From an uncultured virus (IMG/VR IMGVR_UViG_3300021964_000035) (lineage: Duplodnaviria; Heunggongvirae; Uroviricota; Caudoviricetes), in the IMG/VR virus record IMGVR_UViG_3300021964_000035: 64,000 bases of DNA. One strand, given 5' to 3'. Both the position numbers and the translations under genes were made by a program. This document shows positions 25,575 to 59,263 of this stretch, piece after piece. The notes beneath the pieces are model-generated. The model ran no database searches, was not told the DNA's origin, and saw only the letters and a list, made by a program, of their open reading frames with translations. Positions within the stretch are counted from its first letter, which is position 1; the number at the start of each line of letters is the position of its first letter.

Positions 25575-26213
25575 CTACATTTTGTTCCAGGGATCGACAT
25601 CCATTCCAGGCAGTGGATCAGTCTCAGGAACGTAAGATTTCTGTATTTCTTCCATTTCCTTAGAGAAATTGGAAACCTGTTGCTGAACTGGAATGGGTCT
25701 GGGTGCCACAGGAGCAGGACGACTGAGCTGTTGGACAGTCTGCTGGAGGAGAGCAATCTGTTCCATCAGAGGCGTTTCCCTCGACTTGACCCAGTTGGTT
25801 GCGTTCTCCGTCAGTTGATTGAGAACGTTTTCAGGGTGAGGGAAGTTATAGACAGAGCCGTACTCAGTGTCGATGCGCCTGCCCTGTTGTTCGGAAGCAA
25901 GGCTGGAGAGGAACTCTTGAATCCGCTCGAGCGGAATACGCGTGTGGTAGCTGAGTTGATCGGGGCTGACTAGACCTTTGTTGATGTCGTACAGGTGCTT
26001 GAAGCTTTGAGCGAGAACTTCGCCCTCGGCTTTCTGCTCTTCGGTTTTTTTAGTGAAGCCAGCCCCAAGGGCAACGCCAGTCATAACTCCTCCGAATGCC
26101 CCGTAGGCAGCAGGAGTCATTGCAGGGTTGGCAATAGCCGTAGCCACCACACCACCAGCTGCGACGCTGCTGGCAATCGCAAGGATGTTATTGAGAAACG
26201 GGAGGTTCAGCAT
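25575..26213 (-). CDS. Membrane protein (2 TM) with soluble C-terminal domain
   Basis: Two hydrophobic helices followed by a wHTH-like segment. Confidence 0.65.
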   Translation of the reverse strand: MLNLPFLNNILAIASSVAAGGVVATAIANPAMTPAAYGAFGGVMTGVALGAGFTKKTEEQKAEGEVLAQSFKHLYDINKGLVSPDQLSYHTRIPLERIQEFLSSLASEQQGRRIDTEYGSVYNFPHPENVLNQLTENATNWVKSRETPLMEQIALLQQTVQQLSRPAPVAPRPIPVQQQVSNFSKEMEEIQKSYVPETDPLPGMDVDPWNKM

Positions 26214-28944
26214 GTTCTTCAAATGCGAGTTTCCAAAGATCGGGCTGAGGGTTTGAGGCGTACTCGACAGGCGTGGGAAGTCGGGTATCGCCGTAGGCAG
26301 CTCGGCTCGTTGAGATGTCGAAGGGTTTCAGTATAAGGCCAGTAAACACGGCGAAACCGTTGTTAATCGTACGTTTACACGCGTCTAGTTTCAGGACGTT
26401 ACTCAAGGTTTCCTTGAGCCGCTCTGAGAATCTTTCGCGTGCAGCGGCTTTATATCCGTTGGATTTACAGAAGTTGCAGTAGGAGGCATACAGTTCGGTG
26501 TACGCGTTCTTAAAGAACATACCCCGCTCCGATTCATCGGTAGAAGGTTTGAATGCGCCGCCTCCAATCTTGGTGCTCTTGCCAGGTGCGTAGAGGGTGC
26601 ACTCGTTGAGCCATGCTGCGAATGGGTTGTTGAACAGCAGGCTCTCAAAATCGGAAGCTCGGAGGTCAGGACAATGCTTGACCGGATTGGCTAGGACGTC
26701 GCGCATAGTGTCGAAGTCCATCGAGAGAGCCCAAGTCACAATCCCGCTGAGCTCAGGCTCGAGCTCACCCTCGATGCGATCTTGATAGACGTTCAGAAGA
26801 TCGCGTCGCTTTGAAGCAGGCACGACCTTGTCCATGACAATGGTCAGGCGACGTCGCTCAAGACCGCTCGTGGTGTCCGAGGAGCTGATGTGCTCGTTGG
26901 ATGCGATACAGACCAGACACTCAGGCTTAAAAGAGATAACTTCTTTGCCGTATTTACGCTCGGCTCGGAGAGTATCGGAAGCCGATGTCAGTTTTTTCAT
27001 CGTATCCATCCGCTTGCTGTAGGACGATTCGTCCGTAAGCACGACCAGTTTTTTACCGATCAAGCTGAAGCACTCGAACTTGTTGGTTTCAAGTTGCTCG
27101 AGGCTTGTGGTGTGGAGGCCTTGCAGACCCACAAGAGCAGTCAAGACTTGTTGCAGCGTTGACTTACCGGTGCCACCAGGACCCACCAGATGCAGGAACC
27201 TTTCGCCCTGGGTATAGGAAGTCAGGACAGCCCGAGAGAAAGCCTGGATGATCTTGACCCGATCCTTGCCGATGGCGTCAGTCAGCCACGCGACAAACTT
27301 TGGGCACTGGGAGCTGGGGTCGTAGTCGTAGGGAAGTCGGTTTCGGATGTATTGGTTGGGGTCAAAACCAGCAAGGAACTCACCAGTCTGAGAATCCAGA
27401 GCACCGTTTTTGAAGGGAACGAGACCACGGTTGGCAGACCAAATAGAGTTTCGACCGCCCCGGCTAGAACGCAGAAGTTTTCCCTGAAGGAGCTGATAGA
27501 CCGAGTTGACCGTGGCAGAACTGTATTTCGGAATCACGCCAGACGTCACAAAGACGTCAAGAGCCTTGATAATACGGCGCTTGATATGGGTCGAATCCTG
27601 CAGATACCAGACGCCCTCGTCCTCGTCGTAGCAAAAGAACTCGTCGAGGCTTGAGTCGAAAAGGAACGTATCCTTGTTGTTGGAAACGATTACGTCGGCG
27701 ACGTCGTTTTCCGAAAACTGCTTCTTCTTGCCCTGCAAGCTGACGAGCTGCGCAGGGGTCTGCGGGGTTGCAGAGTTGGAGGCCATGGGCTGCTCCTTGG
27801 GTTTTGGTGTTGATGTTGTTGATGATGTGGATGGCTCAAAGTCGAAAGTAAGGATCGAGTTCCTAGCTTTCTCTTGAGGTTTCAGCTGGGCCTGAACTGA
27901 TTCAGGCGCGGACGCGAGAAAGGTCTCGCGGCTGACTCGTTTGACTTTTCGCCAGACGGCAAGGTCACCGTCATCAGAGGCCAGTGCTACCGAAGGAAGC
28001 AGCGTGGCTGGGTCGTAGATCGAATTTAGTATGCGCTTGTACTTGCCGTCAAGCGCTGGTGCGTACTGATAGATGTTTTCAAAACACAGCTCAGCCAGCT
28101 GCTCAGGGCTCACCTGACACTTAAGATCCTTCTCCCGGAGCCAGTTCGACCAGCCGATCAGCTCTTTAAAGGCAACTGCCATGGAGGCAGAGCGGTCCTC
28201 GACCTCGAACCCATCGAGCATGTCGCGGACTTTGGTGCTGACCAGATCGGTGATGTCGATCCCGTCGCTCGCCGTTTCTGCTGTTAAGCAAGATGCTGGG
28301 TCGTCCTCGGCTCGAGCCTCTTTTGGCAAAGCTACATAGGCTTGGTACGCCTCAGTGACTTTGCTCTGTGGGATTGCTTTATCGGAGTAGTAAAAAACTT
28401 TTGGATCGTGCTCTGGATGCGCTCCGTAAAAGAGATTTACGGCTTGGGTTGCGCGGCGATCGGAGCCTGGGATGGATTCTGAGATCGTACGAACAAACCA
28501 CTGGTAGAAGTCCGGGTCAAGAATCTCGCTCTCAAGGCCAAAAACAAGGCGAAAGCGTGGCCAACCGTCAGCAGTACTAGGAGAGAAATAAGCGAGAGAA
28601 AGATACTTTTGACAAATAGGTAGTTCAAGAGCTTGTTCTGGTGTTAGTTGTTGGTCTTGAATTTTGTTGCCTTCTGCATCCTTTCCATCGGCTTGATTGT
28701 CGATGTCAATGATGACAAGGCCAGCTTTAATTGCACCTGTTGAGTTACTCTTACGCTGACCGTTTACGAGATGCCACGCACAGATACCGTGCGCACGCAT
28801 AACCTCGTCGGCAAGCTCTGAGGATGACAGGCTGGAGGCAATCCAGTTGTCGTTAAACGCACCAAACTTCCCACCAGCCGGGATCTTCCCAGAAGGGCCT
28901 AGAGCGGCACGAACTTCACGGTTGATCGAACAGGTGAAACGCAT
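26188..28944 (-). CDS. Primase-helicase (primase-like N-terminus, D5/P4-type SF3 helicase)
   Basis: IIDIDN, PRFRLVF; PFKNG; Walker A GPGGTGKST; Walker B LVVLTDE; IASN. Confidence 0.9.
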   Translation of the reverse strand: MRFTCSINREVRAALGPSGKIPAGGKFGAFNDNWIASSLSSSELADEVMRAHGICAWHLVNGQRKSNSTGAIKAGLVIIDIDNQADGKDAEGNKIQDQQLTPEQALELPICQKYLSLAYFSPSTADGWPRFRLVFGLESEILDPDFYQWFVRTISESIPGSDRRATQAVNLFYGAHPEHDPKVFYYSDKAIPQSKVTEAYQAYVALPKEARAEDDPASCLTAETASDGIDITDLVSTKVRDMLDGFEVEDRSASMAVAFKELIGWSNWLREKDLKCQVSPEQLAELCFENIYQYAPALDGKYKRILNSIYDPATLLPSVALASDDGDLAVWRKVKRVSRETFLASAPESVQAQLKPQEKARNSILTFDFEPSTSSTTSTPKPKEQPMASNSATPQTPAQLVSLQGKKKQFSENDVADVIVSNNKDTFLFDSSLDEFFCYDEDEGVWYLQDSTHIKRRIIKALDVFVTSGVIPKYSSATVNSVYQLLQGKLLRSSRGGRNSIWSANRGLVPFKNGALDSQTGEFLAGFDPNQYIRNRLPYDYDPSSQCPKFVAWLTDAIGKDRVKIIQAFSRAVLTSYTQGERFLHLVGPGGTGKSTLQQVLTALVGLQGLHTTSLEQLETNKFECFSLIGKKLVVLTDESSYSKRMDTMKKLTSASDTLRAERKYGKEVISFKPECLVCIASNEHISSSDTTSGLERRRLTIVMDKVVPASKRRDLLNVYQDRIEGELEPELSGIVTWALSMDFDTMRDVLANPVKHCPDLRASDFESLLFNNPFAAWLNECTLYAPGKSTKIGGGAFKPSTDESERGMFFKNAYTELYASYCNFCKSNGYKAAARERFSERLKETLSNVLKLDACKRTINNGFAVFTGLILKPFDISTSRAAYGDTRLPTPVEYASNPQPDLWKLAFEEHAEPPVSQ

Positions 28945-34620: not shown

Positions 34621-35196
34621 CTACTTCTTATTTCGCATCCAGTAGCGACGCAGCTCGTGGCCAGGACCCACTACCCCGTTGAGAGTTTTGACCATATTCA
34701 TCGCTTCTTCAAAGCTTGGGTAAAGCTCGGCGAATTCTTTTTGGTCGCAGTACTCCGCCACCGATTTACCGGTCAGACTTTTATGTAGGTAGTTCCCGGT
34801 CTTACGGTCTTTAATGACCCAGACCTCACGGAACGTCAGCCCAGTTTGAGCAGCGATAGAGGACATTTCCTCCTCACCGTACAGTTCGGTAGCACATCCA
34901 TCAATTTTAAGTTTCGACTTAGTTATCTTTGGTTTTTTAAAGGTTTTGGGTTTAGGCTCTTCTACCTTCTTAATGGTCGGCGCCTTCGTAATTGTCGCCT
35001 CGATGTTGTTGGCTTTCTTTAGTGCTCTTGCTTTGTTTGCAGCTTGCAAGGCAGTGTCAAAAGAGCACTCAGTCATATAAAGCTTATTACCTGCGTTGAT
35101 AACGCCGTACCAAACCAGCCCTTTCTTGACTGTAAAGATCTCCTTACCCTCTTGAATCTCCAGCTCGAAGAGATCAGAAACGGATTTCGTGGTCAT
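34621..35196 (-). CDS. Hypothetical protein with Lys-rich linker
   Basis: ATGA coupling to polA stop. Confidence 0.65.
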   Translation of the reverse strand: MTTKSVSDLFELEIQEGKEIFTVKKGLVWYGVINAGNKLYMTECSFDTALQAANKARALKKANNIEATITKAPTIKKVEEPKPKTFKKPKITKSKLKIDGCATELYGEEEMSSIAAQTGLTFREVWVIKDRKTGNYLHKSLTGKSVAEYCDQKEFAELYPSFEEAMNMVKTLNGVVGPGHELRRYWMRNKK

Positions 35197-37085
35197 TTTG
35201 CTGCCCATGAGCTACCTACTGATGCGTCTGCACTGGCTGGCACCGACTTTAATACGTGTTCTGCGGCAGTGATCATGGTGGTTTCCAGTACTTCTTTGTA
35301 GTGCTCGGCCTTGTCCTCACGGACTTCGAGCACCAATTCGTCATGCACTGCAGCTACGAGGTGCACGTCATCGCAGAGATGGTCGTTGAGTTCCGCGATT
35401 GCGATCTTCAAGATGTCAGCGCCTGAGCCCTGAATCAAAGTGTTTGCGCTGACCATCATTGACGCATCGTTGTAGCTAAGTAGACGGCGTCTACCAAGGG
35501 CTGTTCGGGTGTACGCCCAACCGTCATCGACCAAGGCTGCGCGTTCCCTGTGCCACGAACGAAGTCTCGGGTACGCCCTGTGGAAAGCCATGTGCGCAAC
35601 CTTGGCATCACTGAGGCTGATGATTTTGCCGGATTGCGCAGCGTAGGTTTTGTACTTTCGGAAACCCATTCCGTACAGCAGAGCGAAGTTCAACGTCTTG
35701 CCGTCTTGGCGCTGATCTTTTGTGACCTCCTCGATTCCGACGTTGTAGATCAAGCTCGCTGTAAGAGTATGGAGGTCGATCCCCTCGCTAAAGGCCTGCT
35801 TCATTTGAGGGATGTTGATCAGCTCAGCCCCAAGACGCAGTTCGATCTGAGCCCAGTCGCAGATAACTAGCTTGAAACCCGGTGCTGGGATAAAGCACTC
35901 ACGGAAGTCTTTGGTTCTCGGGACCTGCTGGATGTTGACTCCGAACTGTGTCTTTGGTTTTTTCTTTGATCCTTTCGGCGCTCCGCTGCTGGTAAACCGC
36001 CCGGAGTTTGCGCCCACTTGGTTGTACCCAGAGTGGATCCTTCCAGTAACAGGATTGATATTTAAGAGAAGTTTTTCTACGTGTTCGACACGGGTTTCAA
36101 GCTTGACCCTTTCCCTGTACAAGTTCAGGGTCGGATCATCACTATCGAACTCGGCCAATGCAATTTGGTTCAGCGTGGTCTTGTTTGTCTTTTGATCGAC
36201 GGGAAGCTCGATGCCGCAAAGACTGAAGGCCTTCGCTACCTGCATCGTTGAGCCAGGATTAAATTCTTTCTTGGCGTTTTTACCTACGGCAATTTCGCCC
36301 TGATCGTTTCGAGGAAGCTTTGCTTGATCGGGTAAGCGAGCATCTAAGGAGTTGATAAACTCAGCTGTTTTTACTTCGAGCTTTTTCTGAATCTCGAGTT
36401 CAAGCTCCAGGAGTTTTGCTTTGTCGACGCCAAAACCACGGGAGCACATCCGTGCTACTGGTCGGATGCATTTGGATTCGATGCTGTAAATGGGTAAAAG
36501 ATTCTCCTCGCGCATCTCAGAGAGTTGCTCTGCTGCCAGACGTGGCAAGATGTCTACATCTCGAGCGGCATATTCGATCTGTTCGGGGTCAAGTTCTTCT
36601 TTGCTCCAGTCTGAAACCTGCTGCTGTTTATCTATTTCGATCTCAAAGCGTCGCTCCAGACAGGCTTTAAGGCTGCAGCTGACGTCCTCGAAGTATTGCT
36701 TTTGCGCCTGCGGTGAGATCTTGGCTTCTTTGAATCCAGCACGCAGGATTCGTTCAGCTATGTAAGTGCAGAAGATCTTGTTTTTGAAGTCGATGCCAAG
36801 GTAAAGAAGGAACTGGAGATCAAAGTTGAGGTTGTGCCCAATGAGCATCTCCCGTGACTCAATGAACTCCTTAAGTTCTGAGGTGCAAGGAGATTTAAAG
36901 AGATCGATCACGTAGACCGTTCTGTCCTGCTCGGCCGGATCAGCGTTACAGATTTGAATCAGACGCGGTTTAGCGATACCGGCTTGCAGACCAGTCGTCT
37001 CGAAGTCAAGGCAGATTTTTGCTGAATCAAATTCAGCAAGAAACGAACCCAGTTGTTGAGGGGTCTCGATCAGTTTTATTTTCAC
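35193..37085 (-). CDS. polA: Family A DNA polymerase with 3'-5' exonuclease
   Basis: LDFETTGL, GHNLNFD, YAARD; DWAQIELR, RQDGKTLNFALLYG, VHDELV; GTG start overlapping the upstream TGA. Confidence 0.95.
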   Translation of the reverse strand: MKIKLIETPQQLGSFLAEFDSAKICLDFETTGLQAGIAKPRLIQICNADPAEQDRTVYVIDLFKSPCTSELKEFIESREMLIGHNLNFDLQFLLYLGIDFKNKIFCTYIAERILRAGFKEAKISPQAQKQYFEDVSCSLKACLERRFEIEIDKQQQVSDWSKEELDPEQIEYAARDVDILPRLAAEQLSEMREENLLPIYSIESKCIRPVARMCSRGFGVDKAKLLELELEIQKKLEVKTAEFINSLDARLPDQAKLPRNDQGEIAVGKNAKKEFNPGSTMQVAKAFSLCGIELPVDQKTNKTTLNQIALAEFDSDDPTLNLYRERVKLETRVEHVEKLLLNINPVTGRIHSGYNQVGANSGRFTSSGAPKGSKKKPKTQFGVNIQQVPRTKDFRECFIPAPGFKLVICDWAQIELRLGAELINIPQMKQAFSEGIDLHTLTASLIYNVGIEEVTKDQRQDGKTLNFALLYGMGFRKYKTYAAQSGKIISLSDAKVAHMAFHRAYPRLRSWHRERAALVDDGWAYTRTALGRRRLLSYNDASMMVSANTLIQGSGADILKIAIAELNDHLCDDVHLVAAVHDELVLEVREDKAEHYKEVLETTMITAAEHVLKSVPASADASVGSSWAAK

Positions 37086-37483
37086 GCTTCGTCCTCGCGG
37101 GTGAAGTAGTTGCACTCGCTTGCAAACAACTCGTCTACTGCGTCAGGCAAGCCGAGCCGACAACCTCCTTCAACGTAATGAACACAATCACTGCAGTGAC
37201 GTTCGCCGTCTGGCTGGTTCGTACAAGCCTGTACCTCAGCTTCCCAGCGTGGCTGACCGATGGCGCTCAGGATCTTATTGAGCATCCTCTCTGAGTCGAG
37301 GAGCTGGTTGTATCGCTTCTCAGGGAGTGTGAAGTTGGTTGAGCGCTCTCCACAGAACGTGCACTCGAGCCGTCTTCTTTGTCCACCTGGCTGCAGTCGG
37401 AGCTTTCTGCTCTCAATTACGCCGATCGTTGTCTTCCCACAGTGGCCGCAAACGAAGGCTGGGTCCTTGGCATTTAATGACAT
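37082..37483 (-). CDS. NrdR-N-like zinc-ribbon protein
   Basis: CGHCG...VIESR...RRRLECTFCGERSTN plus extra C-terminal Cys cluster. Confidence 0.7.
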   Translation of the reverse strand: MSLNAKDPAFVCGHCGKTTIGVIESRKLRLQPGGQRRRLECTFCGERSTNFTLPEKRYNQLLDSERMLNKILSAIGQPRWEAEVQACTNQPDGERHCSDCVHYVEGGCRLGLPDAVDELFASECNYFTREDEA

Positions 37484-39482: not shown

Positions 39483-41030
39483 TCACCTTATGCAACGCTG
39501 AATGCAATCAATGCTCTCAGCTGTCTTGGTCAAGTCCACAGTGTGGACTTCGTCGCTGAACCGATTCAGAATTGGACCTGCGTCGGTCTCAATGCAGATC
39601 GTCGACCACATCGCACCGGTTCTTTCTTTCATCGCGTTGATGTTCCTGATCGTGTGATCGTGCACTTCACTGTGCCCGTCCGTGATCATCAGAATGTCGG
39701 TCTTGTCGGTGATCTTGGCCGAGGTGACTGCGTGCGCCAGTACAGCGTTGAAAGACGTACCACCTCCGAGGTGCCACGTAGCCACAAAGTCCAGCAACTC
39801 ATTGTTGTCAGTCCGCGTGGCATCCAAGCTCACTGAATCCGTAATCCGGACGTCAAACAAATGAATCTGCACACCTCGCTTCTGCTTCAAGGCCTCCTCA
39901 GCAATGAGAAGTGCAATCGCTTTGCTCCAGATTTCAGTCTCGCCCGTCATCGAGCCGGAGACATCGATGTACATGACGATCGGTCCCTTACCGAGATCCT
40001 TTCGATGCGCCTCGTAGTCTTTGGTCAGCAGGCTTCTCTGGCTGTACTTCAGGGCGAAGAGAGCGCGTCCCTGAGGCGTGGCAGCTAACGCCAGCTCATT
40101 GGGGAAAGCTTTGACCACTTCATTACTAAAGGCAGCGCCTGCAATTGCTTCGTAGCTGGCCTTTGCTCGGCGAGCTTTCTTTCGCTCTGTCCAGATCCGC
40201 CGCAAGAAACCAAGACGGTTGGCGATTGCCCTCAGCTTCTTGTTTTGGCGAAGGCGTTTTGCCAACTCACGTTTCTGATTGAGATCGTTTGTGTGCTTGC
40301 CTGTCCCAGCATCGGAGCCGTGAAGCTTGCTGATCCCTTCGTTAGTTTGCTCGGTTTCTTCCTTGGCTTTGTCGACAATCTCATCTATACGGCTGGAGAT
40401 CCTTTCACCAGCTTCCATAAGGTGCTGCTCCATGACAGCGCCAAGCTTCTTGCCCTCTTCTCGCAGCACTGCTGCAGCGCCGTCATCACCAGCGTCCTTC
40501 GCTTCTTGAAACTCCTGACGGATCTTTTCCAGCTTGTCTTTGTTGCTGCTGAGCATCGAGGGTGCCAGCTGCTCCAGGTCCTCGATCAATTCCTCAAGAA
40601 CCTCGGACAGCTCGTTCAGGATGTTTACAGCAGTGTTTCCAGCGTTCCACTGATCGCCGACGCAAAGCATCATCAAGTCGTGCCACGCTGCTGAATTGGT
40701 CAGGTCGTCCATCAGCCCGTACCAGAACGAATCTTCAGGTTTGTAGCCGCGTGGATACACAACCTTTTCCCCGTTCTGTTTTGCTCTGAAATACTCTTCC
40801 CAAGCATTCAGATCGATAAGCCAGCTGACGTTGTCGCCTGAGTAAAGACGCTCGAAAACTTCTTTCCCAAAGCGTGACAACTGGTTGATGTTGTACTGAT
40901 CGGCTAGGTAGCTGACCTGGGGCCTTGCGTCTCGAACAAAGTCGTCCCAAAGAAAATCTGCAAGTGCAGAGCAAGCCAGCGTCAAAGGCTGGTTGTCACT
41001 CAGCCTCAGGATCTCCTGTCGTTTGTCCAT
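39483..41030 (-). CDS. VWA-domain protein (ViaA-like)
   Basis: KGPIVMYIDVSGSM MIDAS; GGGTSF; MITDG. Confidence 0.88.
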   Translation of the reverse strand: MDKRQEILRLSDNQPLTLACSALADFLWDDFVRDARPQVSYLADQYNINQLSRFGKEVFERLYSGDNVSWLIDLNAWEEYFRAKQNGEKVVYPRGYKPEDSFWYGLMDDLTNSAAWHDLMMLCVGDQWNAGNTAVNILNELSEVLEELIEDLEQLAPSMLSSNKDKLEKIRQEFQEAKDAGDDGAAAVLREEGKKLGAVMEQHLMEAGERISSRIDEIVDKAKEETEQTNEGISKLHGSDAGTGKHTNDLNQKRELAKRLRQNKKLRAIANRLGFLRRIWTERKKARRAKASYEAIAGAAFSNEVVKAFPNELALAATPQGRALFALKYSQRSLLTKDYEAHRKDLGKGPIVMYIDVSGSMTGETEIWSKAIALLIAEEALKQKRGVQIHLFDVRITDSVSLDATRTDNNELLDFVATWHLGGGTSFNAVLAHAVTSAKITDKTDILMITDGHSEVHDHTIRNINAMKERTGAMWSTICIETDAGPILNRFSDEVHTVDLTKTAESIDCIQRCIR

Positions 41031-42214
41031 TAGTTTGAGATTTCGGCGATTGTGTGGGCGATTGTTTCGCTGAACTTTTCGAGCTGCCTGTTTAGCTGCA
41101 CGCCTTTTTGTCGGACTGCGATTGACATCTTGTAACGGTCGCCATCCAGTGCATCATTGACCTTCTTCTGGATGCTCAAGATGTCATTGCGAGCACGGCG
41201 ACACTGGGTGACGTAGTCGTTCAGGTCAGCCAGGGAGCGACCGCTGAGCTTTGTTGCGTTGGCCTGGAACTCAGTCATGATTCCAGAGGCAGCCCGCTTT
41301 GCATCGGCAAAGTATTTTTCAGCCGTGGGGCATACCTGCATCAAGCACTCTTTAATAGTGGCTTGATCTTCGTCGTTACGGTAAACAATGTGCACCAGTG
41401 AGTTGTGCATGTGTTCGCCATAGAGTTCTTCGTCGCCTTGGACAACTGCCCAAGCTTTGAGGAACTTGATGATCTGAACTCGCCGGCGGTCACTGATAGT
41501 CAGGCCTCGTGCTTCGAGCATTGACCAGAGCTCGCCGAACTTATCCAGGAAGTCATCGGTGACAGGCAGCGTTGCTGCTTTTGCCTGCAGCTCGAACAGA
41601 TCGCCAAGCTTTAAGTGCACACCGACGTCGGGTCTTTGCTGGATGCCTGCAGCCCAGAGATCAAGCGTGCGCTTACTGGCGCTCATCGCCAGGAACCGAA
41701 CAGTTGGGCGGAACAGGAAACGATCGGCGAAAGCTTGGAGTGATTCCTCCTCAGGCCAGCTGTTTGTGGCAGCGACGATCGACTGGATCGGCGTCTCGAT
41801 TGTTTCTTTGCCGTTGTTGAACGTGCGCTCGTTCAGAAGGGTGAGCAGTGAATTCAGGATCGCGGAAGAGCCACGAAACAGTTCGTCAGTGAACGCGATG
41901 TGCGCAGAGGGAAGGTAGCCATCGACGTCACGTTGGTACTCGTCCTTGAGGAGCTTCGTGACAGCTACAGGACCGAAGAGTTCGCTTGGGTCGCTGGTTG
42001 GCGTGAGGAGGTAGCCGAAGTAGTTGGCGCCGTCGATGCCCTTGCAAATGCTCCGGACCAGATCTGACTTACCAGTGCCGGGCTCGCCCAGTAGGAAAGC
42101 GTTTTGCTTTGAGAGCAGCGTGGCAAGCAGACCGTCGATAACATCGACGCGCTCGAGGTGCGCAGTGTTGAGAGCAGCTCGGAAGTTCTGAAGTGATTTG
42201 AAAAGATCAGTCAT
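41030..42214 (-). CDS. MoxR-family AAA+ ATPase (RavA-like)
   Basis: GEPGTGKS; PSELFGP; GYLP; FTDELF; ILNSLLTLLNER; AFADRF; ISDRR. Confidence 0.9.
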   Translation of the reverse strand: MTDLFKSLQNFRAALNTAHLERVDVIDGLLATLLSKQNAFLLGEPGTGKSDLVRSICKGIDGANYFGYLLTPTSDPSELFGPVAVTKLLKDEYQRDVDGYLPSAHIAFTDELFRGSSAILNSLLTLLNERTFNNGKETIETPIQSIVAATNSWPEEESLQAFADRFLFRPTVRFLAMSASKRTLDLWAAGIQQRPDVGVHLKLGDLFELQAKAATLPVTDDFLDKFGELWSMLEARGLTISDRRRVQIIKFLKAWAVVQGDEELYGEHMHNSLVHIVYRNDEDQATIKECLMQVCPTAEKYFADAKRAASGIMTEFQANATKLSGRSLADLNDYVTQCRRARNDILSIQKKVNDALDGDRYKMSIAVRQKGVQLNRQLEKFSETIAHTIAEISN

Positions 42215-53700: not shown

Positions 53701-53828
53701 TCGTCGCGAATACCGACCAGCGCAATCCTCTGCTTCGCGAGGTGCAGAATCGCATTGGTTTAGCTCGCGAGCGTTTCAACCCCGCCAAAGGTGAGTTTGG
53801 TCTGTCCGAATTCCTATTTAACCGATGA
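50784..53828 (+). CDS. Large Cys-free 1014-aa protein, probable internal virion protein
   Basis: Charged helical body with a hydrophobic Gly/Ala C-terminal segment. Confidence 0.7.
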   Translation: MPSRDIFTRNNIEKAAEAIRREWRRDDQADRRVRQAMLQQGLDEEDLDLRYRLQDYASQELDEYGDPIDPDDLTEAQLREYATPAEFQRDIPFRGFDVDPDDESYVGYRLASQNPEVLELMRQQRAPLDSDAKRASQNRLFEDIRAGRVNRQDLRAIADLSGASTLLSENAGDDAAYEAASFIEQQRTGNPQAQIGFDLDDTVESSLEEASRFITRPMRAADEVAAGQRRLGQNINAARGAVARSSNVLAEEFGQRINRLEAEGLGLSEPQTLEGAERNARRLREITESLQNIERLASTDATPAAGSDIDERTAIRNRILPQVQEALGERGTTRAVEEVLRQQRAERNLASQQQRLAADALRSGPISQQLETLDAQFRRPMSPRIVDELEVIDRGVSQSGIPGLWEQVEIARQDTVERQTEGARRDIDRLLDQYPEVRQVFEASPKSDTRPRARGGESSKAFRQYMDFAQQYASPEDRAATYNAALDLYPAETKGEIAKQLQRIESDYTSGNTALQRDAVDQLLALGGDLPESETPAISPRRPVIGGGRYVSREDIEQNPELKRLVDRIDTRAKDINQALSQFDRTTLRQLFPDQVGSLLSFPKLGLAYDESTGQVTEVDPTDRNAYRVEVMGASRGGTPQIQGTEELFQGRSARVSENALRFLADNPVLRQSSVSFKTGIPGYGVDYQAEAALPKPVSDVFTSFIQREALKGAKPGTLVANSPLSSGDLIDARIRQGETEATSSILRRLMPFSREAQTLPNLRGVAYQSAGFGPTDIGGAQYTFISPEGEAIPVQFRQSEVGLRGKVKVDPDGAYVSQGALPASSPRYFSTVVPGLDQATLSRVAKNIRRTPASLLPGAADLIPSAEAVRRGYQEGPQALAEQVGRDFVSGLPVGAASAVVLSTPLVAPLAPGIGGGLVLTAAGEAANEAIKQQTGEGIVPKVRQFLGTRERTGVADEGKTRKPREAVTPQIVANTDQRNPLLREVQNRIGLARERFNPAKGEFGLSEFLFNR

Positions 53829-54580
53829 ACGATTACGCGAAGAAAATGATTCAGAAAGACCCTATGATGTATGTAAATGCCAATGGCGTACGCCCTTTAC
53901 CTCGCGAAATGATGGGTAACGAGTTCGAACAATCCGGTCGTTACGGTCGCGTCATTACGCGTACCCCCGCCACAAGCTTCGACATGGGCATGCCCGGTGT
54001 GGGCGGCACCTATGACTCTGAACTCTTCCGCAAGATGATGGAAGAGAAGATGCGCGGTCAGCAGTCCGAAATGGACCAAATGATGCGCAGCCGGGGTCAG
54101 GAAGCTATCCAGCAGCAGCGTGATGCTTTTGCTGAGCAAGCTGCACGTCAGGCTGAAGAAGCCATGCGCGAAGGCGAAGGCGGTCCCGGTAAGGACGGCG
54201 TTGAAATGCATTCCGGTGGCGGCCACATGAGGCAAGGGTCCGGCATGGGCATGGGCATGCCTCGCATGGAGCGTCGGGAAGGTGGTCCCGGCGGCATCGA
54301 TATCAGTGGCTTAAGCGCTTACGAAACCGCAGACGATCAGCCCACGATGGCTGATTTCGCCGAGGAGAAAAAAGGCTTCTCCGCGAAAGATCTCCAGGGT
54401 CTCCTCGCAAGCGCAGGCAAAGGCTTAGAAGGAATCGCCAAAGGAGTCGCTGCTGCTCGTGGCGAAGAAGCTCCCTCCGATCGCGGTAGCTCCAACCTGC
54501 CCGACATGGACATGGGCGAAGGTGAAGGCAGCCTGGGTCAGAAGTTCATGGCTCAGTATCTTGCCTCTATCATGGGCTGA
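53825..54580 (+). CDS. Met/Gly-rich hypothetical protein
   Basis: ATGA coupling; motif shared with 1189. Confidence 0.7.
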   Translation: MNDYAKKMIQKDPMMYVNANGVRPLPREMMGNEFEQSGRYGRVITRTPATSFDMGMPGVGGTYDSELFRKMMEEKMRGQQSEMDQMMRSRGQEAIQQQRDAFAEQAARQAEEAMREGEGGPGKDGVEMHSGGGHMRQGSGMGMGMPRMERREGGPGGIDISGLSAYETADDQPTMADFAEEKKGFSAKDLQGLLASAGKGLEGIAKGVAAARGEEAPSDRGSSNLPDMDMGEGEGSLGQKFMAQYLASIMG

Positions 54581-54585
54581 TTCCC

Positions 54586-54717
54586 ATGAGCAGAATGAAG
54601 AAGTCCCCGACTGCCGAGCACATCGTCAGCCGTCCCAAAAAGACTCGCCAAGGTCAGGGAACTCGAAGCAAGGCAAATCACGGACGTAAAAAGCTCCGTG
54701 GCCAAGGCCGAGGCTGA
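54586..54717 (+). CDS. 43-aa basic cyanophage-type peptide
   Basis: PKKTRQGQG...KKLRGQGR. Confidence 0.7.
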   Translation: MSRMKKSPTAEHIVSRPKKTRQGQGTRSKANHGRKKLRGQGRG

Positions 54718-54722
54718 GACAT

Positions 54723-54757
54723 AAAAAAGACCCCTCCAATCGGAGGGGCTTTCTTTT
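54723..54757. terminator. Bidirectional intrinsic terminator
   Basis: A6-GA-CCCCTCC-AATC-GGAGGGG-CTTTCTTTT between convergent genes. Confidence 0.85.
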
Positions 54758-54765
54758 GCTTTGAA

Positions 54766-55164
54766 TCAGGCGGCAGTTGCAGTCAAGCGATACTCACTTC
54801 CACTGCGTCCTTTGCGGAAGACGTAGATCGAAGCGGTTTCGGCGCTGCTGACAGAGTAGGTAACTTCTGCGGACGTCCGGCGAGAGGTCTTAGGAGCATC
54901 GACTTCACCAGCCAGGGTGCCGTCAGACTTGTAGACAGCCACGCCGCGAATACCAAAAGCTTCTGCGTTGATCGTGATAGTCGCAGTGCCTGTGGTGCCG
55001 TAGGTGACTTCGTAGACGTCGGCCAGCTCATAAGATCCGTCGCCTGCGAATTCGCGGTAGCTATCGACAGTGACGTTAGAACCGTCTTGGGTGCGGAACT
55101 GACCAAAGCGAGTGATACCGGCTGGAGCCGCACCTAACTCGCGGTTGAAAGTAGCTTCAGCCAT
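54766..55164 (-). CDS. Putative Ig/PPC-like virion decoration protein
   Basis: beta-rich DVYEV...ASIYV...EYRLT. Confidence 0.6.
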   Translation of the reverse strand: MAEATFNRELGAAPAGITRFGQFRTQDGSNVTVDSYREFAGDGSYELADVYEVTYGTTGTATITINAEAFGIRGVAVYKSDGTLAGEVDAPKTSRRTSAEVTYSVSSAETASIYVFRKGRSGSEYRLTATAA

Positions 55165-55275
55165 TTTGGGCTTGTAAGGATATATCTATTTTAAACAAGG
55201 GGGCCACAATTTAATCTCAGCTTATTTGGGTTTAGCGCAGAAGATAGTTAATATAAAAACAGCTTTGTTATTCCA

Positions 55276-55425
55276 ATGCTCGAGCATATCCTTAGCGGCC
55301 CCGCTCTTTGGATCGTCGTTGCAGCTGCTTCTGAGCTGATTGCACTGAACCCCAAACTGAAGAGCAATAGCGTTATTCAGCTGGTCTTCCAGATTCTGAA
55401 TGTCCTTAAGGCAAAAAAGCGCTAG
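55276..55425 (+). CDS. 49-aa holin-like membrane peptide (0 frame)
   Basis: ALWIVVAAASELIALNPKLKSNSVIQLVFQILNVLKAKKR, translated by hand. Confidence 0.65.
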   Translation: MLEHILSGPALWIVVAAASELIALNPKLKSNSVIQLVFQILNVLKAKKR

Positions 55426-55450
55426 GCCTACCGGCTGACGCCCGGTGGCT
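55413..55450 (+). promoter_or_regulatory. Candidate -1 programmed ribosomal frameshift signal
   Basis: In-phase A_AAA_AAG, 5-nt spacer, then a GC-rich hairpin. Confidence 0.7.
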
Positions 55451-55673
55451 GTATAAATTTTCAACCCGCTCGAACTTCGACAAGCTCCAGCGGATGATTC
55501 AGGACCGCAAGTTTCAGGCCACTCTGAAACCCAAGGTGGATCGCGCTATTGAGGAATGGCACGATACGCAGCCGCCGGACTTCCCACGCCCTATTGTCGA
55601 CCTAGACAATTTGCAGATCAAAGCCCCTTGGTCTGTAGACAAAGACCCCAAAAGTCCCGATGGACAATCTTGA
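55416..55673 (+). CDS. -1 frame extension of the holin-like gene (fusion about 132 aa)
   Basis: Open for 85 codons: KALGLPADARWLYKFSTRS...QDRKFQATLKPKVDRAIEEWHDTQP...IKAPW. Confidence 0.6.
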   Translation, partial: KALGLPADARWLYKFSTRSNFDKLQRMIQDRKFQATLKPKVDRAIEEWHDTQPPDFPRPIVDLDNLQIKAPWSVDKDPKSPDGQS

Positions 55674-55830
55674 CGTCGAGGTTCTCGACACCGAGCTCAT
55701 TCGTGTGTGCTTAACGGAAGACGGTATAACTGAGTGTTGCTTTGTGACCAGTTTCCATCTGGTACAAGAAAAGGAAAGTCAGCTCAGACGTGCCATCATT
55801 AGGACAGCCGAAGAGACCCTCTGTGGTTGA
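55660..55830 (+). CDS. 56-aa cyanophage-type protein
   Basis: IRVCLTEDGITECCFVTSFHLV. Confidence 0.6.
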   Translation: MDNLDVEVLDTELIRVCLTEDGITECCFVTSFHLVQEKESQLRRAIIRTAEETLCG

Positions 55831-55931
55831 TGAACCGCTTCCCTTCGAAGACGAAGACCCTGGTTTCACTGAGGAAGAAGAGGAACTCCTCGATCTAGCT
55901 CTCAAGAACCTCGGAACATTCTTGACTGAGC

Positions 55932-56570
55932 ATGAATATCAAGATCCCGAGTGGGCTGAACCAGACTTCAAGGACGCCGAGCTACCCGAGCCTGACGGCT
56001 CCCCAAGTTACTGAGATCCCTCAGGTTGCAATACCTGAACCTTTAAATATCCCAACTCCCTATCTGAACATCCCTAAGCCGGATGTTCCGTCATATCGCC
56101 CTCTCCAGCTTTATGGCACGCCTGTTCCTCCTGGTATTCCACGACCTCCAAAGGCACAGGCCCCGAAACCCCCCGAGTCGAAAGAACAGCCTGCCCCGCC
56201 ACGGCCAGCATTAGTAACCCCACAAACGCCCCGAATACCAGCGCCATCTTCGTCGGAGGAACCTCAGGACGGTTTTCAGTCAAAGGAGGTGACCACGATT
56301 GAATTACCGATCGTCAATATAAAGGTTCCGGTCCCCCGCAAGGAAGTTGTTGTTACCGCAGCCACAACAAGTGTGATCAGCGTGGGCGCGGCTTTACTAG
56401 GAACCAGTATTTTTAAAAGACTGGTTACAGCTTTTAAGCCTGCTTTTAAGGCTCTGGCGAAGAAGATTCGGAAGCTTCGGGGGAAACCGACTCAGTCTTG
56501 GGCACGAGAGCGGCTACAGGGACGATATCAGCGCATAAAAAATGGAACTGTGAGTCTGGATGGAAAGTAA
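55932..56570 (+). CDS. Proline-rich membrane protein
   Basis: Pro-rich N-terminus, TM helix VVVTAATTSVISVGAALLG, basic tail. Confidence 0.7.
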   Translation: MNIKIPSGLNQTSRTPSYPSLTAPQVTEIPQVAIPEPLNIPTPYLNIPKPDVPSYRPLQLYGTPVPPGIPRPPKAQAPKPPESKEQPAPPRPALVTPQTPRIPAPSSSEEPQDGFQSKEVTTIELPIVNIKVPVPRKEVVVTAATTSVISVGAALLGTSIFKRLVTAFKPAFKALAKKIRKLRGKPTQSWARERLQGRYQRIKNGTVSLDGK

Positions 56571-56976
56571 AACCTTTGCTTTGAAGTTCAGCACATCTCA
56601 GTGCTCTGGCTATTTCGTAATTCAATTGTTCCCGCCTAACTTTTGCACGCCCTAGAGCCTTACAGAGCTCGACCATTCCGCCGTCCAAAGGCACGGATAG
56701 GGTCACTTGTGCCCCAAAGTTAGAGTTACGCACATAGTGTTTCTTCTGGTGTACGTCGTTTCCTAGGTAGAAGGGAGTTAATACCAGCGTCGAAGAATTG
56801 CATTGGTGCCCCGCACCAAAACCCTGCGTGGAATAACCCCCTTGATTTATTTGTACGGCTTGATTATTTACTGATCCACTTGAAGTAGCTACAGGATTAG
56901 CTATAGCTGTTGTCTCTGCGTTGGCTTTTAGGCCAAAGGTTATTGCGAGAAGACCGATAAGGAGTTGGTAGTAGAT
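56446..56976 (-). CDS. Secreted Cys-containing cyanophage-type protein (start uncertain)
   Basis: Signal peptide IYYQLLIGLLAITFGLKANA; ANPVATSSGSVNNQAVQI. Confidence 0.7.
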   Translation of the reverse strand: MYYQLLIGLLAITFGLKANAETTAIANPVATSSGSVNNQAVQINQGGYSTQGFGAGHQCNSSTLVLTPFYLGNDVHQKKHYVRNSNFGAQVTLSVPLDGGMVELCKALGRAKVRREQLNYEIARALRCAELQSKGFTFHPDSQFHFLCADIVPVAALVPKTESVSPEASESSSPEP

Positions 56977-59179: not shown

Positions 59180-59263
59180 GCCCAGGTGATGAAATTGGTA
59201 AACATAACGGACTTAAAATCCGTCGCTCGTTTGAGCTTGCGGGTTCAAGTCCCGCTCTGGGCA
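59180..59263 (+). tRNA. trnL: tRNA-Leu(UAA), CCA not encoded
   Basis: GCCCAGG/TCTGGGC acceptor; ACGGA-CT-TAA-AA-TCCGT anticodon arm; long variable arm; GGTTCAAGTCC. Confidence 0.95.

What the first reader, a model, noticed from the sequence alone, without database searches (positions are those of the whole stretch)
55276..55673. Candidate programmed -1 frameshift giving short and long forms of a holin-like membrane protein
Seen: a 49-aa hydrophobic ORF (missing from the ORF track) ends GCA AAA AAG CGC TAG, placing A_AAA_AAG (55413-55419) in X_XXY_YYZ phase. Five nt later is a hairpin GGCC-T-ACCGG-CTGACGC-CCGGT-GGCT (55425-55450). The -1 frame stays open for 85 codons to TGA 55673, reads as protein, has no start codon in its first ~26 codons, and overlaps the next gene's ATG. 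Known: A_AAA_AAG plus a 3' stem-loop is the dnaX/IS3-type bacterial frameshift signal; phage frameshifts are mostly described in tail chaperone and capsid genes. Inference: one membrane anchor is made with or without an ~85-aa soluble tail, possibly a holin/antiholin-like or spanin-like pair whose ratio is set by recoding.
Basis: partly seen in the sequence, partly recalled or inferred. Interest (0 to 1): 0.82.

Follow-up and report, generated by a model that had tools for sequence, protein, structure and literature searches.

The report
Conserved frameshift in cyanophage membrane-protein gene
A tiny membrane-protein gene of this cyanobacterial virus ends in a slippery sequence that is kept in dozens of related viruses, so ribosomes very probably slip back one base there and make both a 49-residue protein and a 132-residue form with an extra tail, most likely as part of the machinery that bursts the host cell.

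Summary
ORF 55276-55425 (49 aa, phrog_22542) ends GCA AAA AAG CGC TAG, so A_AAA_AAG (55413-55419) is in X_XXY_YYZ phase. The -1 frame is closed by TAA at 55407-55409, then open to TGA 55671-55673.

Comparison decides the case. Of 76 distinct related sequences (7 cultured Synechococcus phages of three lineages, IMG/VR contigs, the window):
- 69 carry A_AAA_AAG in phase and one carries G_GGA_AAG.
- The 0-frame stop lies 3 nt (68) or 0 nt (2) after the heptamer.
- The -1 frame then runs a median 77.5 codons and encodes a conserved peptide ending (A/S)PW.
- Many of these -1 frames have no start codon.
- Lineages without the heptamer have mostly lost the tail.

The hairpin exists (-13.7 kcal/mol, 5-nt spacer), but it is not conserved and shows no covariation.

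In relatives the gene sits just upstream of the endolysin, or at the position of T7's holin. This suggests a lysis role, which is unproven; in this window the endolysin is 33 kb away.

I found no paper describing this. Other agents of this scan reported the same family in other genomes. Verdict: a very probable programmed -1 frameshift giving 49-aa and 132-aa forms, and a new use of a known mechanism.

The parts
55276..55425 (+). Short form gene: 49 aa plus TAG. It has one hydrophobic helix (about residues 9-24, with invariant Ser19-Glu20), an NPKLK loop, an amphipathic helix (30-48) and a basic C-terminus.
   Evidence: phrog_22542 E 7e-20 covering 3-48 of a 49-position profile; AF2 pLDDT 76.8 with helices 9-24 and 30-48; hydropathy; 67 relatives of 46-79 aa, all unnamed or 'hypothetical'.
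55413..55419 (+). Slippery heptamer A_AAA_AAG in X_XXY_YYZ phase. This is the site of tandem -1 slippage of two tRNA-Lys (inferred).
   Evidence: Phase checked. It is present in phase in 69 of 76 distinct relatives, and one more has G_GGA_AAG. It was unchanged in contigs of 4 metagenome runs.
55407..55409 (+). TAA in the -1 frame directly 5' of the heptamer. It closes the -1 frame upstream, so the tail cannot be reached from an upstream start in that frame.
55423..55425 (+). 0-frame stop TAG, one codon after the heptamer. It terminates the short form.
   Evidence: The same spacing (3 nt) is seen in 68 of the 70 heptamer-bearing relatives, and 0 nt in the 2 podoviruses.
55419..55673 (+). -1 frame extension: 84 sense codons plus TGA 55671-55673. 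Joined to residues 1-48 of the short form it gives a predicted 132-aa long form. Its end carries the conserved APW motif.
   Evidence: Homologous tails were found by tblastn from query residue 1 in KBS-S-2A and S-CBS1. See alignments A2/A3. AF2 pLDDT 71.9 with helices 8-17 and 21-51 followed by coil. The 3 natural variants seen in it all fall on third positions of the -1 frame.
55425..55450 (+). Hairpin GGCC-U-ACCGG / CCGGU-GGCU, 5 nt after the heptamer. It is a possible stimulator of the shift. It also scores as a weak terminator-like site (55432-55451 plus TATAAATTTT).
   Evidence: -13.7 kcal/mol, z -0.62; 4% of local windows as stable; no covariation; terminator-like; 3 found against 2.6 expected.
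55494..55496 (+). First ATG of the -1 frame, the start of the 59-aa ORF that gene callers report. It is not conserved in relatives.
   Evidence: P0002; KBS-S-2A has GAA ATC at this place; 62 of 67 relatives have no ATG in the first 40 codons.
55660..55830 (+). Next ORF (56 aa, no family). Its ATG overlaps the end of the -1 frame by 14 nt. In relatives this position is held by the endolysin gene.

Best explanation
The gene at 55276-55425 encodes a 49-aa membrane protein: one hydrophobic helix, one amphipathic helix and a basic end.

Proposed mechanism. When the ribosome holds AAA in the P site and AAG in the A site (55414-55419), a fraction of ribosomes slip back one base on A_AAA_AAG. They miss the TAG one codon downstream and read 84 more codons in the -1 frame. 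This gives a 132-aa long form with the same membrane anchor and an added soluble tail: two helices, a proline-rich stretch and a conserved (A/S)PW end. Ribosomes that do not slip make the short form. The GC-rich hairpin 5 nt downstream may raise the slip rate, but this is not established.

Shown here by comparison: the heptamer, the position of the stop and the start-less -1 coding frame are conserved together.

Inferred:
- The shift happens at all, and at what ratio.
- The tail is cytoplasmic. The positive charges follow the hydrophobic helix and the N-terminus is acidic, which points to an N-out/C-in orientation.
- The pair acts in host lysis, as a holin-like protein plus a longer form that modulates it or its timing (antiholin-like or adaptor-like).
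For: 1. Anatomy in the window.

2. Conservation. The set is 89 sequences (the window, 8 GenBank records, 80 IMG/VR loci), of which 76 are distinct.
- 67 have A_AAA_AAG with the stop 3 nt later, 2 have A_AAA_AAG with the stop directly after, and 1 (S-EIVl) has G_GGA_AAG.
- The -1 frame runs on for a median 77.5 codons (67 of 70 have at least 50). The +1 frame runs a median 9.
- 62 of 70 tails end in [AS]PW plus at most 16 residues.

3. Wobble constraint. The codon before AAA AAG encodes 8 different amino acids (A, P, V, T, G, Q, S, E) but ends in A in 69 of 70; the exception is CCG before GGA AAG. Lys codons elsewhere in the gene are AAG 80 to AAA 67.

4. Heptamer and tail go together: heptamer with tail 67, heptamer without an HMM-detected tail 3, no heptamer with tail 1, neither 5. 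Fisher p = 1.8e-5, not corrected for relatedness. Two of the three 'heptamer without tail' loci are podoviruses with divergent 53-62-codon tails ending SPW. L005, which lost the tail, writes Lys-Lys as AAG AAA.

5. No independent start. Of 67 loci, 60 have no ATG/GTG/TTG in the first 10 codons after the shift site, 52 have none in the first 20 and 5 have none at all. tblastn aligns the tail from its first residue, overlapping the end of the short ORF by 10 nt in the +2 frame, in KBS-S-2A and S-CBS1.

6. No sequencing artefact. Contigs of 4 runs show no insertion or deletion across 55150-55900 and leave the heptamer unchanged.

7. Lysis context in relatives.
- 35 of 42 downstream genes scanned carry murein-hydrolase-type Pfam domains of four different architectures.
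- In the T7-like podoviruses WH11-B and S-B28 the gene lies between the tail-fibre and small-terminase genes. By recall, that is where T7 has holin gene 17.5.
- One protein (P0059) has the tail's C-terminal half fused in frame to a lysozyme domain.
- A homologue of the short form sits unannotated in a Microviridae genome.
Against: - No direct evidence of the long product exists: no proteomics, Ribo-seq or reporter.
- The hairpin is no better than shuffles and has no covariation in the window's clade. 62.7% of cells pair against 62.3% in shuffles, and 294 of 500 shuffles score as high.
- Across 28 sequence clusters only 9 have a downstream fold in the best tenth of local windows. A stimulator is therefore not demonstrated.
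- The counts come from related sequences and from the best 80 of at least 539 IMG/VR relatives, so they are not independent and not a random sample.
- L046/L048 keep an intact tail with A_AAG_AAG, which is not a canonical heptamer.
- L009 keeps the heptamer with only a 15-codon -1 frame.

On the lysis role:
- The short form matches no holin family in Pfam or NCBIfam, and its PHROG has no function.
- In this window the endolysin (21229-22467) is 33 kb away and lacks the N-terminal domain that relatives' endolysins share.
- Neither that domain nor the upstream TM-coiled-coil gene of relatives was found in the window.
Confidence: 0.78

Rival explanations
1. Two ordinary genes. The 49-aa ORF ends at TAG, and a separate 59-aa protein starts at ATG 55494. 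The heptamer is just a Lys-Lys codon pair.
For: ATG 55494 exists, and gene callers report the 59-aa ORF (P0002). GenBank annotators gave the tails of S-CBS1, S-CBS3 and S-EIVl their own internal starts. AAAAAAG is not rare in the window.
Against: - The peptide is conserved through the 25 codons before ATG 55494.
- The ATG is not conserved: 62 of 67 relatives have no ATG in the first 40 codons and 5 have no ATG/GTG/TTG at all.
- The third positions of the three heptamer codons are fixed while the amino acid before them varies.
- No Shine-Dalgarno-like run precedes ATG 55494 (read).
Confidence: 0.07
2. Termination-reinitiation. Ribosomes finish the short ORF and restart in the -1 frame at the codon that overlaps the stop (CUG or UUG in ...C/U-UGA).
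For: The 0-frame stop is at a fixed place, and the -1 codon overlapping it is always Leu. Stops are TGA in 50 of 70, which makes that codon CTG or TTG. Several loci have TTG exactly there (first start 'TTG, 0' in L033, L035, L061, L062, L067).
Against: - 20 of 70 have TAG or TAA, which makes the overlapping codon CTA. CTA is not a start codon, and the window is one of these.
- The model does not explain why XXA AAA AAG is fixed at wobble positions, nor why the heptamer is lost together with the tail.
- S-EIVl changed to another canonical heptamer, G_GGA_AAG, instead of losing slipperiness.
Confidence: 0.05
3. Transcriptional slippage. RNA polymerase adds or drops an A in the A-run, so some mRNAs have the two frames fused.
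For: The site holds a run of 6 A (7 in S-CBS1). By recall, A-runs are known sites of polymerase slippage.
Against: By recall, a run of 6 is shorter than those that slip efficiently. S-EIVl has CCG GGA AAG with only three A, which still allows ribosomal tandem slippage but not polymerase slippage. The one contig from an RNA library that covers the site (X15, 55221-55442) shows no indel. This is weak evidence: it is a contig and may be DNA.
Confidence: 0.03
4. The hairpin is a transcription terminator or attenuator after the short gene, not a frameshift stimulator.
For: The consensus scan lists stem 55432-55451 followed by TATAAATTTT. The hairpin is not conserved as a frameshift element.
Against: Terminator-like hits are no more frequent than in shuffles (3 against 2.6). 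The T-run is weak. The sequence is coding in the conserved -1 frame, and downstream genes follow on the same strand. Relatives have different hairpins at this place, and most of those hairpins are not followed by a T-run.
Confidence: 0.1

Closest known systems
IS3-family transposases (IS911, IS150, IS3) OrfA / OrfAB -1 frameshift (recalled, not from a call)
   Same: The heptamer is the same A_AAA_AAG. The 0-frame stop follows soon after the site, and the -1 shift fuses a start-less second frame. One gene therefore yields a short protein and a long protein that share the N-terminal part. A downstream structure is often present.
   Different: Those are DNA-binding and transposase proteins of mobile elements. 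This is a roughly 50-aa membrane protein of a phage. No single conserved downstream structure was found here.
E. coli dnaX tau/gamma -1 frameshift (recalled)
   Same: A_AAA_AAG with tandem tRNA-Lys slippage; a hairpin a few bases downstream; two products in a set ratio.
   Different: In dnaX the shift leads to an early stop and gives the shorter product; here the shift gives the longer one. No conserved Shine-Dalgarno-like element appears in the upstream codon columns that I tabulated, although I ran no dedicated search for one.
Tail assembly chaperone G/GT -1 frameshift of tailed phages (lambda G_GGA_AAG; recalled)
   Same: It is a phage-encoded, conserved -1 frameshift that makes a short form and a C-terminally extended form. 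S-EIVl uses this same heptamer, G_GGA_AAG, at the site studied here.
   Different: G/GT lies between the major tail and tape-measure genes and acts in tail assembly. This gene lies next to endolysin or terminase genes and encodes a membrane protein.
Holin/antiholin pairs from one gene by dual starts (lambda S105/S107, phage 21 S68/S71; recalled)
   Same: A small membrane lysis protein is made in two forms from one gene. The forms differ by an extension at one end, and their ratio is thought to set timing. That is the function proposed here.
   Different: Those use two start codons and differ by 2-3 N-terminal residues. Here the means is a ribosomal frameshift and the difference is about 84 C-terminal residues. 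Holin activity has not been shown for this family, and it matches no holin family.
T7 gene 17.5 holin, by position (recalled)
   Same: In the T7-like cyanopodoviruses WH11-B and S-B28 the gene lies between the tail-fibre gene and the small terminase gene (DNA_Packaging_2).
   Different: No sequence similarity was tested or seen. T7 17.5 is not known to be frameshifted.

Membership tests
Programmed -1 ribosomal frameshift site (dnaX / IS3 type) | Slippery heptamer X_XXY_YYZ in the 0-frame phase | tested here: met
   A_AAA_AAG at 55413-55419, with the A as the third base of GCA.
Programmed -1 ribosomal frameshift site (dnaX / IS3 type) | The heptamer is conserved in phase among homologues, beyond what the protein sequence requires | tested here: met
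   70 of 76 distinct sequences have it. The preceding codon encodes 8 different amino acids and ends in A in 69 of 70. Lys elsewhere is AAG 80 to AAA 67.
Programmed -1 ribosomal frameshift site (dnaX / IS3 type) | A long -1 frame encodes a conserved peptide that has no start of its own | tested here: met
   Median 77.5 codons. The tail is conserved from its first residue. 52 of 67 have no ATG/GTG/TTG in the first 20 codons and 5 have none at all.
Programmed -1 ribosomal frameshift site (dnaX / IS3 type) | A conserved stimulatory RNA structure 5-9 nt downstream | tested here: inconclusive
   The window hairpin is -13.7 kcal/mol with a 5-nt spacer, z -0.62. There is no covariation. Across 28 clusters the downstream fold is more stable than the local mean (Wilcoxon p 2e-4), but only 9 of 28 lie in the best tenth.
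Programmed -1 ribosomal frameshift site (dnaX / IS3 type) | The trans-frame protein is detected | not testable with these tools
   This needs proteomics, a tagged construct or a reporter.
Holin | Small protein with at least one transmembrane helix and a charged C-terminus | tested here: met
   The best 15-residue window, ALWIVVAAASELIAL, has mean Kyte-Doolittle hydropathy 2.17. AF2 gives helices 9-24 and 30-48. The C-terminus is KAKKR. The hydrophobic helix is short (16 residues).
Holin | The gene lies next to the endolysin gene | tested here: not met
   In the window the endolysin is at 21229-22467. In relatives the feature is met: 35 of 42 downstream genes carry murein-hydrolase-type domains.
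Holin | Match to a described holin family | tested here: not met
   No Pfam and no NCBIfam family matches. phrog_22542 has unknown function.
Holin | Forms lethal membrane lesions that release endolysin | not testable with these tools
   This needs expression and lysis assays.
i-spanin (Rz-like) | N-in/C-out anchor with a periplasmic coiled-coil domain and a partner outer-membrane lipoprotein | tested here: inconclusive
   The long form would have an anchor, a 31-residue helix and a Pro-rich stretch. However, the charge distribution favours a cytoplasmic tail (reading), and I searched for no lipoprotein partner.
Tail assembly chaperone G/GT | Located between the major tail and tape-measure genes, with a soluble chaperone fold | tested here: not met
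   The neighbours are unrelated, and the product is a membrane protein.

The most novel reading that the evidence does not exclude
A recoding switch built into the lysis module of Synechococcus phages of at least three lineages: S-CBS1-like siphoviruses, S-EIVl and T7-like podoviruses. The frameshift rate at A_AAA_AAG would set the ratio of a 49-aa holin-like protein to a 132-aa form whose cytoplasmic tail holds back or directs hole formation, or docks the endolysin. Because slippage on Lys codons depends on tRNA-Lys supply and modification, the timing of lysis would be coupled to the translational state of the host cell.
Probability: 0.25. Interest if true: 0.85.

Novelty: new variant of a known kind. 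Interest (0 to 1): 0.7.

Why it matters
Programmed frameshifts in phages are known mainly from tail chaperone and capsid genes. A conserved one in a small membrane protein of the lysis region would be a new way to make two forms of a lysis protein, comparable in purpose to the dual-start holin/antiholin genes.

It also bears on annotation. In the seven cultured phages that carry it, the short ORF or the tail is either left unannotated or given an arbitrary internal start. The family is common: at least 539 relatives in IMG/VR.

Lysis genes of marine cyanophages are poorly known. This gives a concrete, testable candidate, and several of the phages concerned are in culture.

Tried and rejected
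- Complex prediction (tail against the conserved N-terminal domain of relatives' endolysins) was not available, so no binding test was made.
- The window's own assembly is not held. The nearest record, G001 (27 kb, 34% complete), has no match to the tail profile, which shows nothing.
- Foldseek of the tail model against the PDB found nothing at E <= 0.001. The ESM Atlas gave no usable hit.
- The search for homologous proteins with the tail found only the 59-aa ATG-started ORF.
- A search for longer proteins containing the short form found none. This is weak evidence that no in-frame fused form exists.
- I looked for the genomic context of the tail-lysozyme fusion P0059 in IMG/VR. All 80 loci kept match only its lysozyme part, from about residue 41 onward (most from 59-69), so its context remains unknown.
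- The 212-aa Pro-rich protein at 55932-56570 has no match in the phage collection.
- No sigma-70-like promoter was found in 54700-56700.
- A profile of the endolysin N-domain had its best window hit at E 0.009 (12 bits), on an ORF antisense to the dCTP deaminase gene. I judged it spurious.
- Reads: an RNA-library contig (X15) covers 55221-55442 only. Contigs cannot show expression or a frameshift.
- I considered sequencing error or a decaying gene and rejected both, because of the conservation and the indel-free independent contigs.
- I considered the spanin reading and ranked it low on charge topology.
- Literature searches found no paper on a frameshift in this or any holin-like phage gene, judged from titles and abstract beginnings only. 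The searches were: cyanophage + frameshift + holin, 16 papers; S-CBS1 + frameshift, 0; programmed ribosomal frameshift + holin + bacteriophage + slippery, 7; cyanophage + ribosomal frameshift, 13; S-CBS1 + holin, 1. I opened no paper.
Full report
**What is in the window**

The plus strand holds a 49-aa ORF from ATG 55276 to TAG 55423-55425. Its last codons read GCA AAA AAG CGC TAG. The heptamer A_AAA_AAG therefore occupies 55413-55419 with its first A as the third base of a codon, which is the X_XXY_YYZ phase needed for tandem -1 slippage.

In the -1 frame there is a TAA at 55407-55409, directly before the heptamer. The frame is then open for 87 codons to TGA 55671-55673. Counted from the shift site it adds 84 residues. 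The predicted long form is therefore residues 1-48 of the short form plus 84 residues, 132 aa in total.

The first ATG/GTG/TTG in the -1 frame is ATG 55494, 25 codons after the shift. The next ORF starts at ATG 55660 and overlaps the end of the -1 frame.

**What kind of genome this is**

The window is phage DNA. It carries a family A DNA polymerase (35193-37115), a primase/helicase (26188-28944), several tail-fibre genes, an endolysin (21229-22467), thymidylate synthase and dCTP deaminase. The 49-aa ORF matches phrog_22542, an unnamed 49-position family, at E 7e-20 over positions 3-48. It is therefore a real, conserved small gene that normally ends where it ends here.

**The comparative test**

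tblastn found the short protein in 13 phage records, which are 9 distinct genomes once RefSeq duplicates are removed:
- the Synechococcus siphoviruses S-CBS1, S-CBS3 and KBS-S-2A;
- the polar phage S-EIVl;
- the T7-like podoviruses S-B28, WH11-B and 7B11-B;
- an uncultured podovirus (MedDCM-OCT-S37-C6);
- one Microviridae genome.

The -1 peptide of the window aligns from its first residue to KBS-S-2A and S-CBS1. It starts 10 nt before the end of their short ORFs, in the +2 (that is, -1) frame.

Reading the DNA gave the following.
- KBS-S-2A, S-CBS1 and S-CBS3 all have A_AAA_AAG in phase, a stop one codon later, and an open -1 frame to the next gene.
- KBS-S-2A has GAA ATC where the window has its ATG, and GenBank annotates nothing there.
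- S-EIVl has CCG GGA AAG. This is the other classical heptamer, G_GGA_AAG, in the same phase and with the same stop spacing, followed by a 93-codon -1 frame whose end resembles that of S-CBS3.
- The podoviruses have A_AAA_AAG directly followed by TAA, and 53-62 further codons ending SPW.
- The uncultured podovirus and the microvirus have neither a heptamer nor a tail.

**A larger sample**

A scan of IMG/VR found at least 539 relatives; the best 80 were kept. Together with the 8 GenBank loci and the window this makes 89 sequences, of which 76 are distinct over 410 nt.
- 67 have A_AAA_AAG with the stop 3 nt later, 2 have it with the stop adjacent, 1 has G_GGA_AAG, and 6 have none.
- In the 70 with a heptamer the -1 frame continues for a median 77.5 codons (67 of 70 have at least 50). 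The +1 frame continues for a median 9.
- 62 of 70 tails end in [AS]PW plus at most 16 residues.
- The codon before AAA AAG is GCA 40, CCA 17, GTA 4, ACA 3, GGA 2, CAA 1, TCA 1 and GAA 1: eight amino acids, always with A in the wobble position. The single CCG is the one before GGA AAG.
- Lys elsewhere in these genes is AAG 80 to AAA 67.

The third-position entropies (0.11, 0 and 0 bits at the three heptamer codons against 0.72-1.74 elsewhere) were computed on the heptamer-bearing set only. They describe the pattern and are not an independent test.

A profile of the tails (alignment A3) recognises the -1 peptide in 67 of the 70 heptamer-bearing sequences and in 1 of the 6 without a heptamer. Fisher p is 1.8e-5, uncorrected for relatedness.
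- The three heptamer-bearing sequences the profile missed are the two podoviruses, whose tails are divergent, and L009, whose -1 frame is 15 codons.
- The single exception the other way is L046/L048, with A_AAG_AAG and an intact tail.

Where the tail is gone the Lys-Lys codons are free: L005 has AAG AAA, L038 AGG AAA and L076 CGG CGC.

Among the 67 with heptamer and tail:
- 60 have no ATG/GTG/TTG in the first 10 codons after the shift;
- 52 have none in the first 20;
- 62 have no ATG in the first 40;
- 5 have no such codon anywhere.

**Artefacts and natural variation**

The stretch occurs in 20 listed runs from 16 studies, 2 of which are flagged as the possible source. I laid contigs of 4 of these runs.
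- They show no insertion or deletion in 55150-55900.
- The heptamer is unchanged.
- One run carries a G-to-T change at 55411, which turns GCA into TCA and keeps the A.
- Three changes fall in the tail, all at third positions of the -1 frame (my reading).

Contigs cannot show expression.

**The hairpin**

The evidence for a role is mixed.
- Against dinucleotide shuffles it is unremarkable (z -0.62; 51 of 200 fold as well).
- Against other 45-nt windows within about 1 kb it is in the best 4%.
- In the window's own clade (12 sequences) the structure has no covariation support: 62.7% of cells pair against 62.3% in shuffles, with one double change. RNAalifold finds only a 6-pair GC stem with no compensatory change.
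- Over 60 distinct sequences the 50 nt after the heptamer fold to a mean -14.9 kcal/mol against -10.2 for control windows, but the hairpins differ from clade to clade.
- Over 28 clusters below 80% identity the difference is significant (Wilcoxon p 2e-4), yet only 9 of 28 are in the best tenth.
- The two podoviruses have a strong hairpin (z -3.3 and -4.3) whose stem sequences differ between them.

I conclude that a stimulatory structure is plausible but not shown. The same window hairpin is also listed as terminator-like, among 3 such hits against 2.6 expected.

**What the protein looks like**

AlphaFold on 41 sequences gives the short form a helix at 9-24 (hydrophobic, with invariant Ser19-Glu20), a loop NPKLK and an amphipathic helix at 30-48, at pLDDT 76.8. 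The N-terminus is acidic and the positive charges lie after the hydrophobic helix. By the positive-inside rule (established knowledge, my inference) this puts the C-terminus, and hence the tail, in the cytoplasm.

The tail model (45 sequences, pLDDT 71.9) has helices at 8-17 and 21-51, then a proline-rich coil. It has no structural match. The tail has 14 Lys+Arg, 13 Asp+Glu and 9 Pro.

**What it may do**

In relatives the -1 frame ends at, or overlaps, the start of the next gene. One search found 52 such downstream ORFs. I scanned 42: 40 of those 52, leaving out near-duplicates by eye, plus the annotated downstream genes of KBS-S-2A and S-CBS1.
- 35 of the 42 carry murein-hydrolase-type Pfam domains in four architectures: Phage_lysozyme+Peptidase_M15_3, Glucosaminidase+Peptidase_C39_2/C70, C39_2 alone and M15_3 alone.
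- The other 7 were a small terminase, a microvirus Rep and 5 with no family.
- These endolysins share a conserved N-terminal domain of about 58 aa whatever their catalytic part.

Upstream, siphovirus and podovirus relatives alike have a gene of about 81 aa for a TM helix plus coiled coil.

In the podoviruses the module lies between the tail-fibre and small-terminase genes. By recall, that is the place of holin gene 17.5 in T7.

Two further leads point the same way.
- P0059 (218 aa) joins the C-terminal half of the tail in frame to a lysozyme domain. Its genomic context could not be found.
- A Microviridae genome carries an unannotated homologue of the short form.

All this points to a role in lysis, but it is guilt by association.
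- No holin family matches.
- In this window the gene is 33 kb from the endolysin.
- The window's endolysin lacks the shared N-domain.
- Neither that domain nor the 81-aa gene was found in the window.
- L009 and L038 keep the N-domain without a tail.

A tail-to-N-domain partnership is therefore not obligatory. The binding test could not be run.

**Mechanism, with what is shown and what is inferred**

Shown by sequence and comparison: the heptamer, the stop spacing and a start-less coding -1 frame are conserved together and lost together. One lineage swapped one canonical heptamer for another.

Inferred:
- Ribosomes with tRNA-Lys on AAA and AAG slip back one base, bypass the stop and make the 132-aa form, while the rest make the 49-aa form.
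- The ratio, the help from the hairpin or from the nearby stop, the cytoplasmic location of the tail, and a holin-like/modulator division of labour.

Rivals, all ranked low for the reasons given in their entries:
- independent initiation;
- reinitiation at the CUG/UUG overlapping the stop, which fails for the 20 of 70 with CTA, including the window;
- polymerase slippage, which fails for G_GGA_AAG.

**Comparison with what is known (recalled unless a call is cited)**

The signal is that of dnaX and the IS3 family. The logic, a short form plus a C-terminally extended fusion, is that of IS3 OrfA/OrfAB and of the phage G/GT tail chaperones. The proposed purpose is that of dual-start holin/antiholin genes.

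It is not a member of any of those gene families. It differs in the kind of protein (a membrane protein of about 50 aa) and in its location (the lysis module).

**Novelty**

Five literature searches (listings and abstract beginnings only, no paper opened) gave nothing on a frameshift in this or any holin-like phage gene. GenBank records of the seven cultured carriers do not annotate it.

Notes of this scan show that other agents reached the same reading for the same family in other genomes (e1-5989251, e1-6097847, e1-6035913, e1-6211003). Those are unchecked AI notes, not independent evidence. My counts come from my own calls.

I rate it a new variant of a known kind: a known mechanism in a new setting, widely conserved, experimentally untested.

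Noticed in passing
L008 1504-1644 (Microviridae sp. MH572431, record about 2849-2989): There is an unannotated homologue of the 49-aa membrane protein (49% identity, with the SE and LK-NS--Q motifs kept). It lies between the scaffolding and replication-initiator genes of a 4.3-kb microvirus and has no heptamer and no tail. It may be that virus's lysis gene.
   Followed up: partly
P0059 (218 aa, from the profile search): The C-terminal half of the tail domain is fused in frame to a phage-lysozyme-like domain, without the usual N-terminal domain of the neighbouring endolysins. The IMG/VR scan matched only its lysozyme part, so its context is unknown.
   Followed up: partly
L009-L088, first ~58 codons of the genes downstream of the -1 frame (alignment A7): Endolysins with four different catalytic architectures share one conserved N-terminal domain (consensus ..DLFRYYK.LPHQMAAI.ELE....WFKTWSQ.GK) that has no Pfam family. 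The window's endolysin (21229-22467) lacks it.
   Followed up: partly
L001 1222-1467, L002 1220-1465, L003 1248-1490, L006/L007 1263-1508 and many IMG/VR loci: A conserved gene of about 81 aa (N-terminal TM helix plus coiled coil) lies directly upstream of the frameshift gene in both siphovirus and podovirus relatives. It is absent from the window.
   Followed up: partly
L046 and L048, last codons of the short ORF: These variants read GTA AAG AAG GGC TAG (A_AAG_AAG, not a canonical heptamer), yet they keep an intact 66-codon homologous tail. Either the site has weakened or it shifts by single-tRNA slippage.
   Followed up: no
L038 and L060, around 2137-2142: The tail is missing, the Lys-Lys codons are replaced, and the endolysin gene (369-371 codons in the +1 frame) starts before the stop of the short ORF. 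This looks like a lineage in which the tail was deleted.
   Followed up: no
GenBank records HQ634187, KJ410740, MK016662, HM480106, GU936715: Annotation is patchy. The tail region is unannotated in KBS-S-2A, and in the GenBank record of S-B28 only its last part lies under the next gene. The short ORF is unannotated in S-EIVl and S-B28. In S-CBS1, S-CBS3 and S-EIVl the tail is given an internal TTG or ATG start.
   Followed up: yes
window 59180-59263 (+): tRNA-Leu (anticodon TAA), the only tRNA gene found in the window. It lies beside a tail-fibre gene.
   Followed up: no
window 54730-54749: A GC-rich hairpin flanked by T-runs on both strands lies between the convergent genes 53825-54580 (+) and 54766-55164 (-). 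It looks like a bidirectional terminator.
   Followed up: no
window 39483-42214 (-): A MoxR-type AAA ATPase (bpMoxR, E 1e-53) is followed by a VWA-domain protein. This pair is more usual in cellular ternary systems than in phages.
   Followed up: no
window 55932-56570 (+): A 212-aa proline-rich protein with a C-terminal hydrophobic segment and basic end (phrog_9426, unknown function) lies two small ORFs downstream of the frameshift gene. It has no match in the phage collection.
   Followed up: partly
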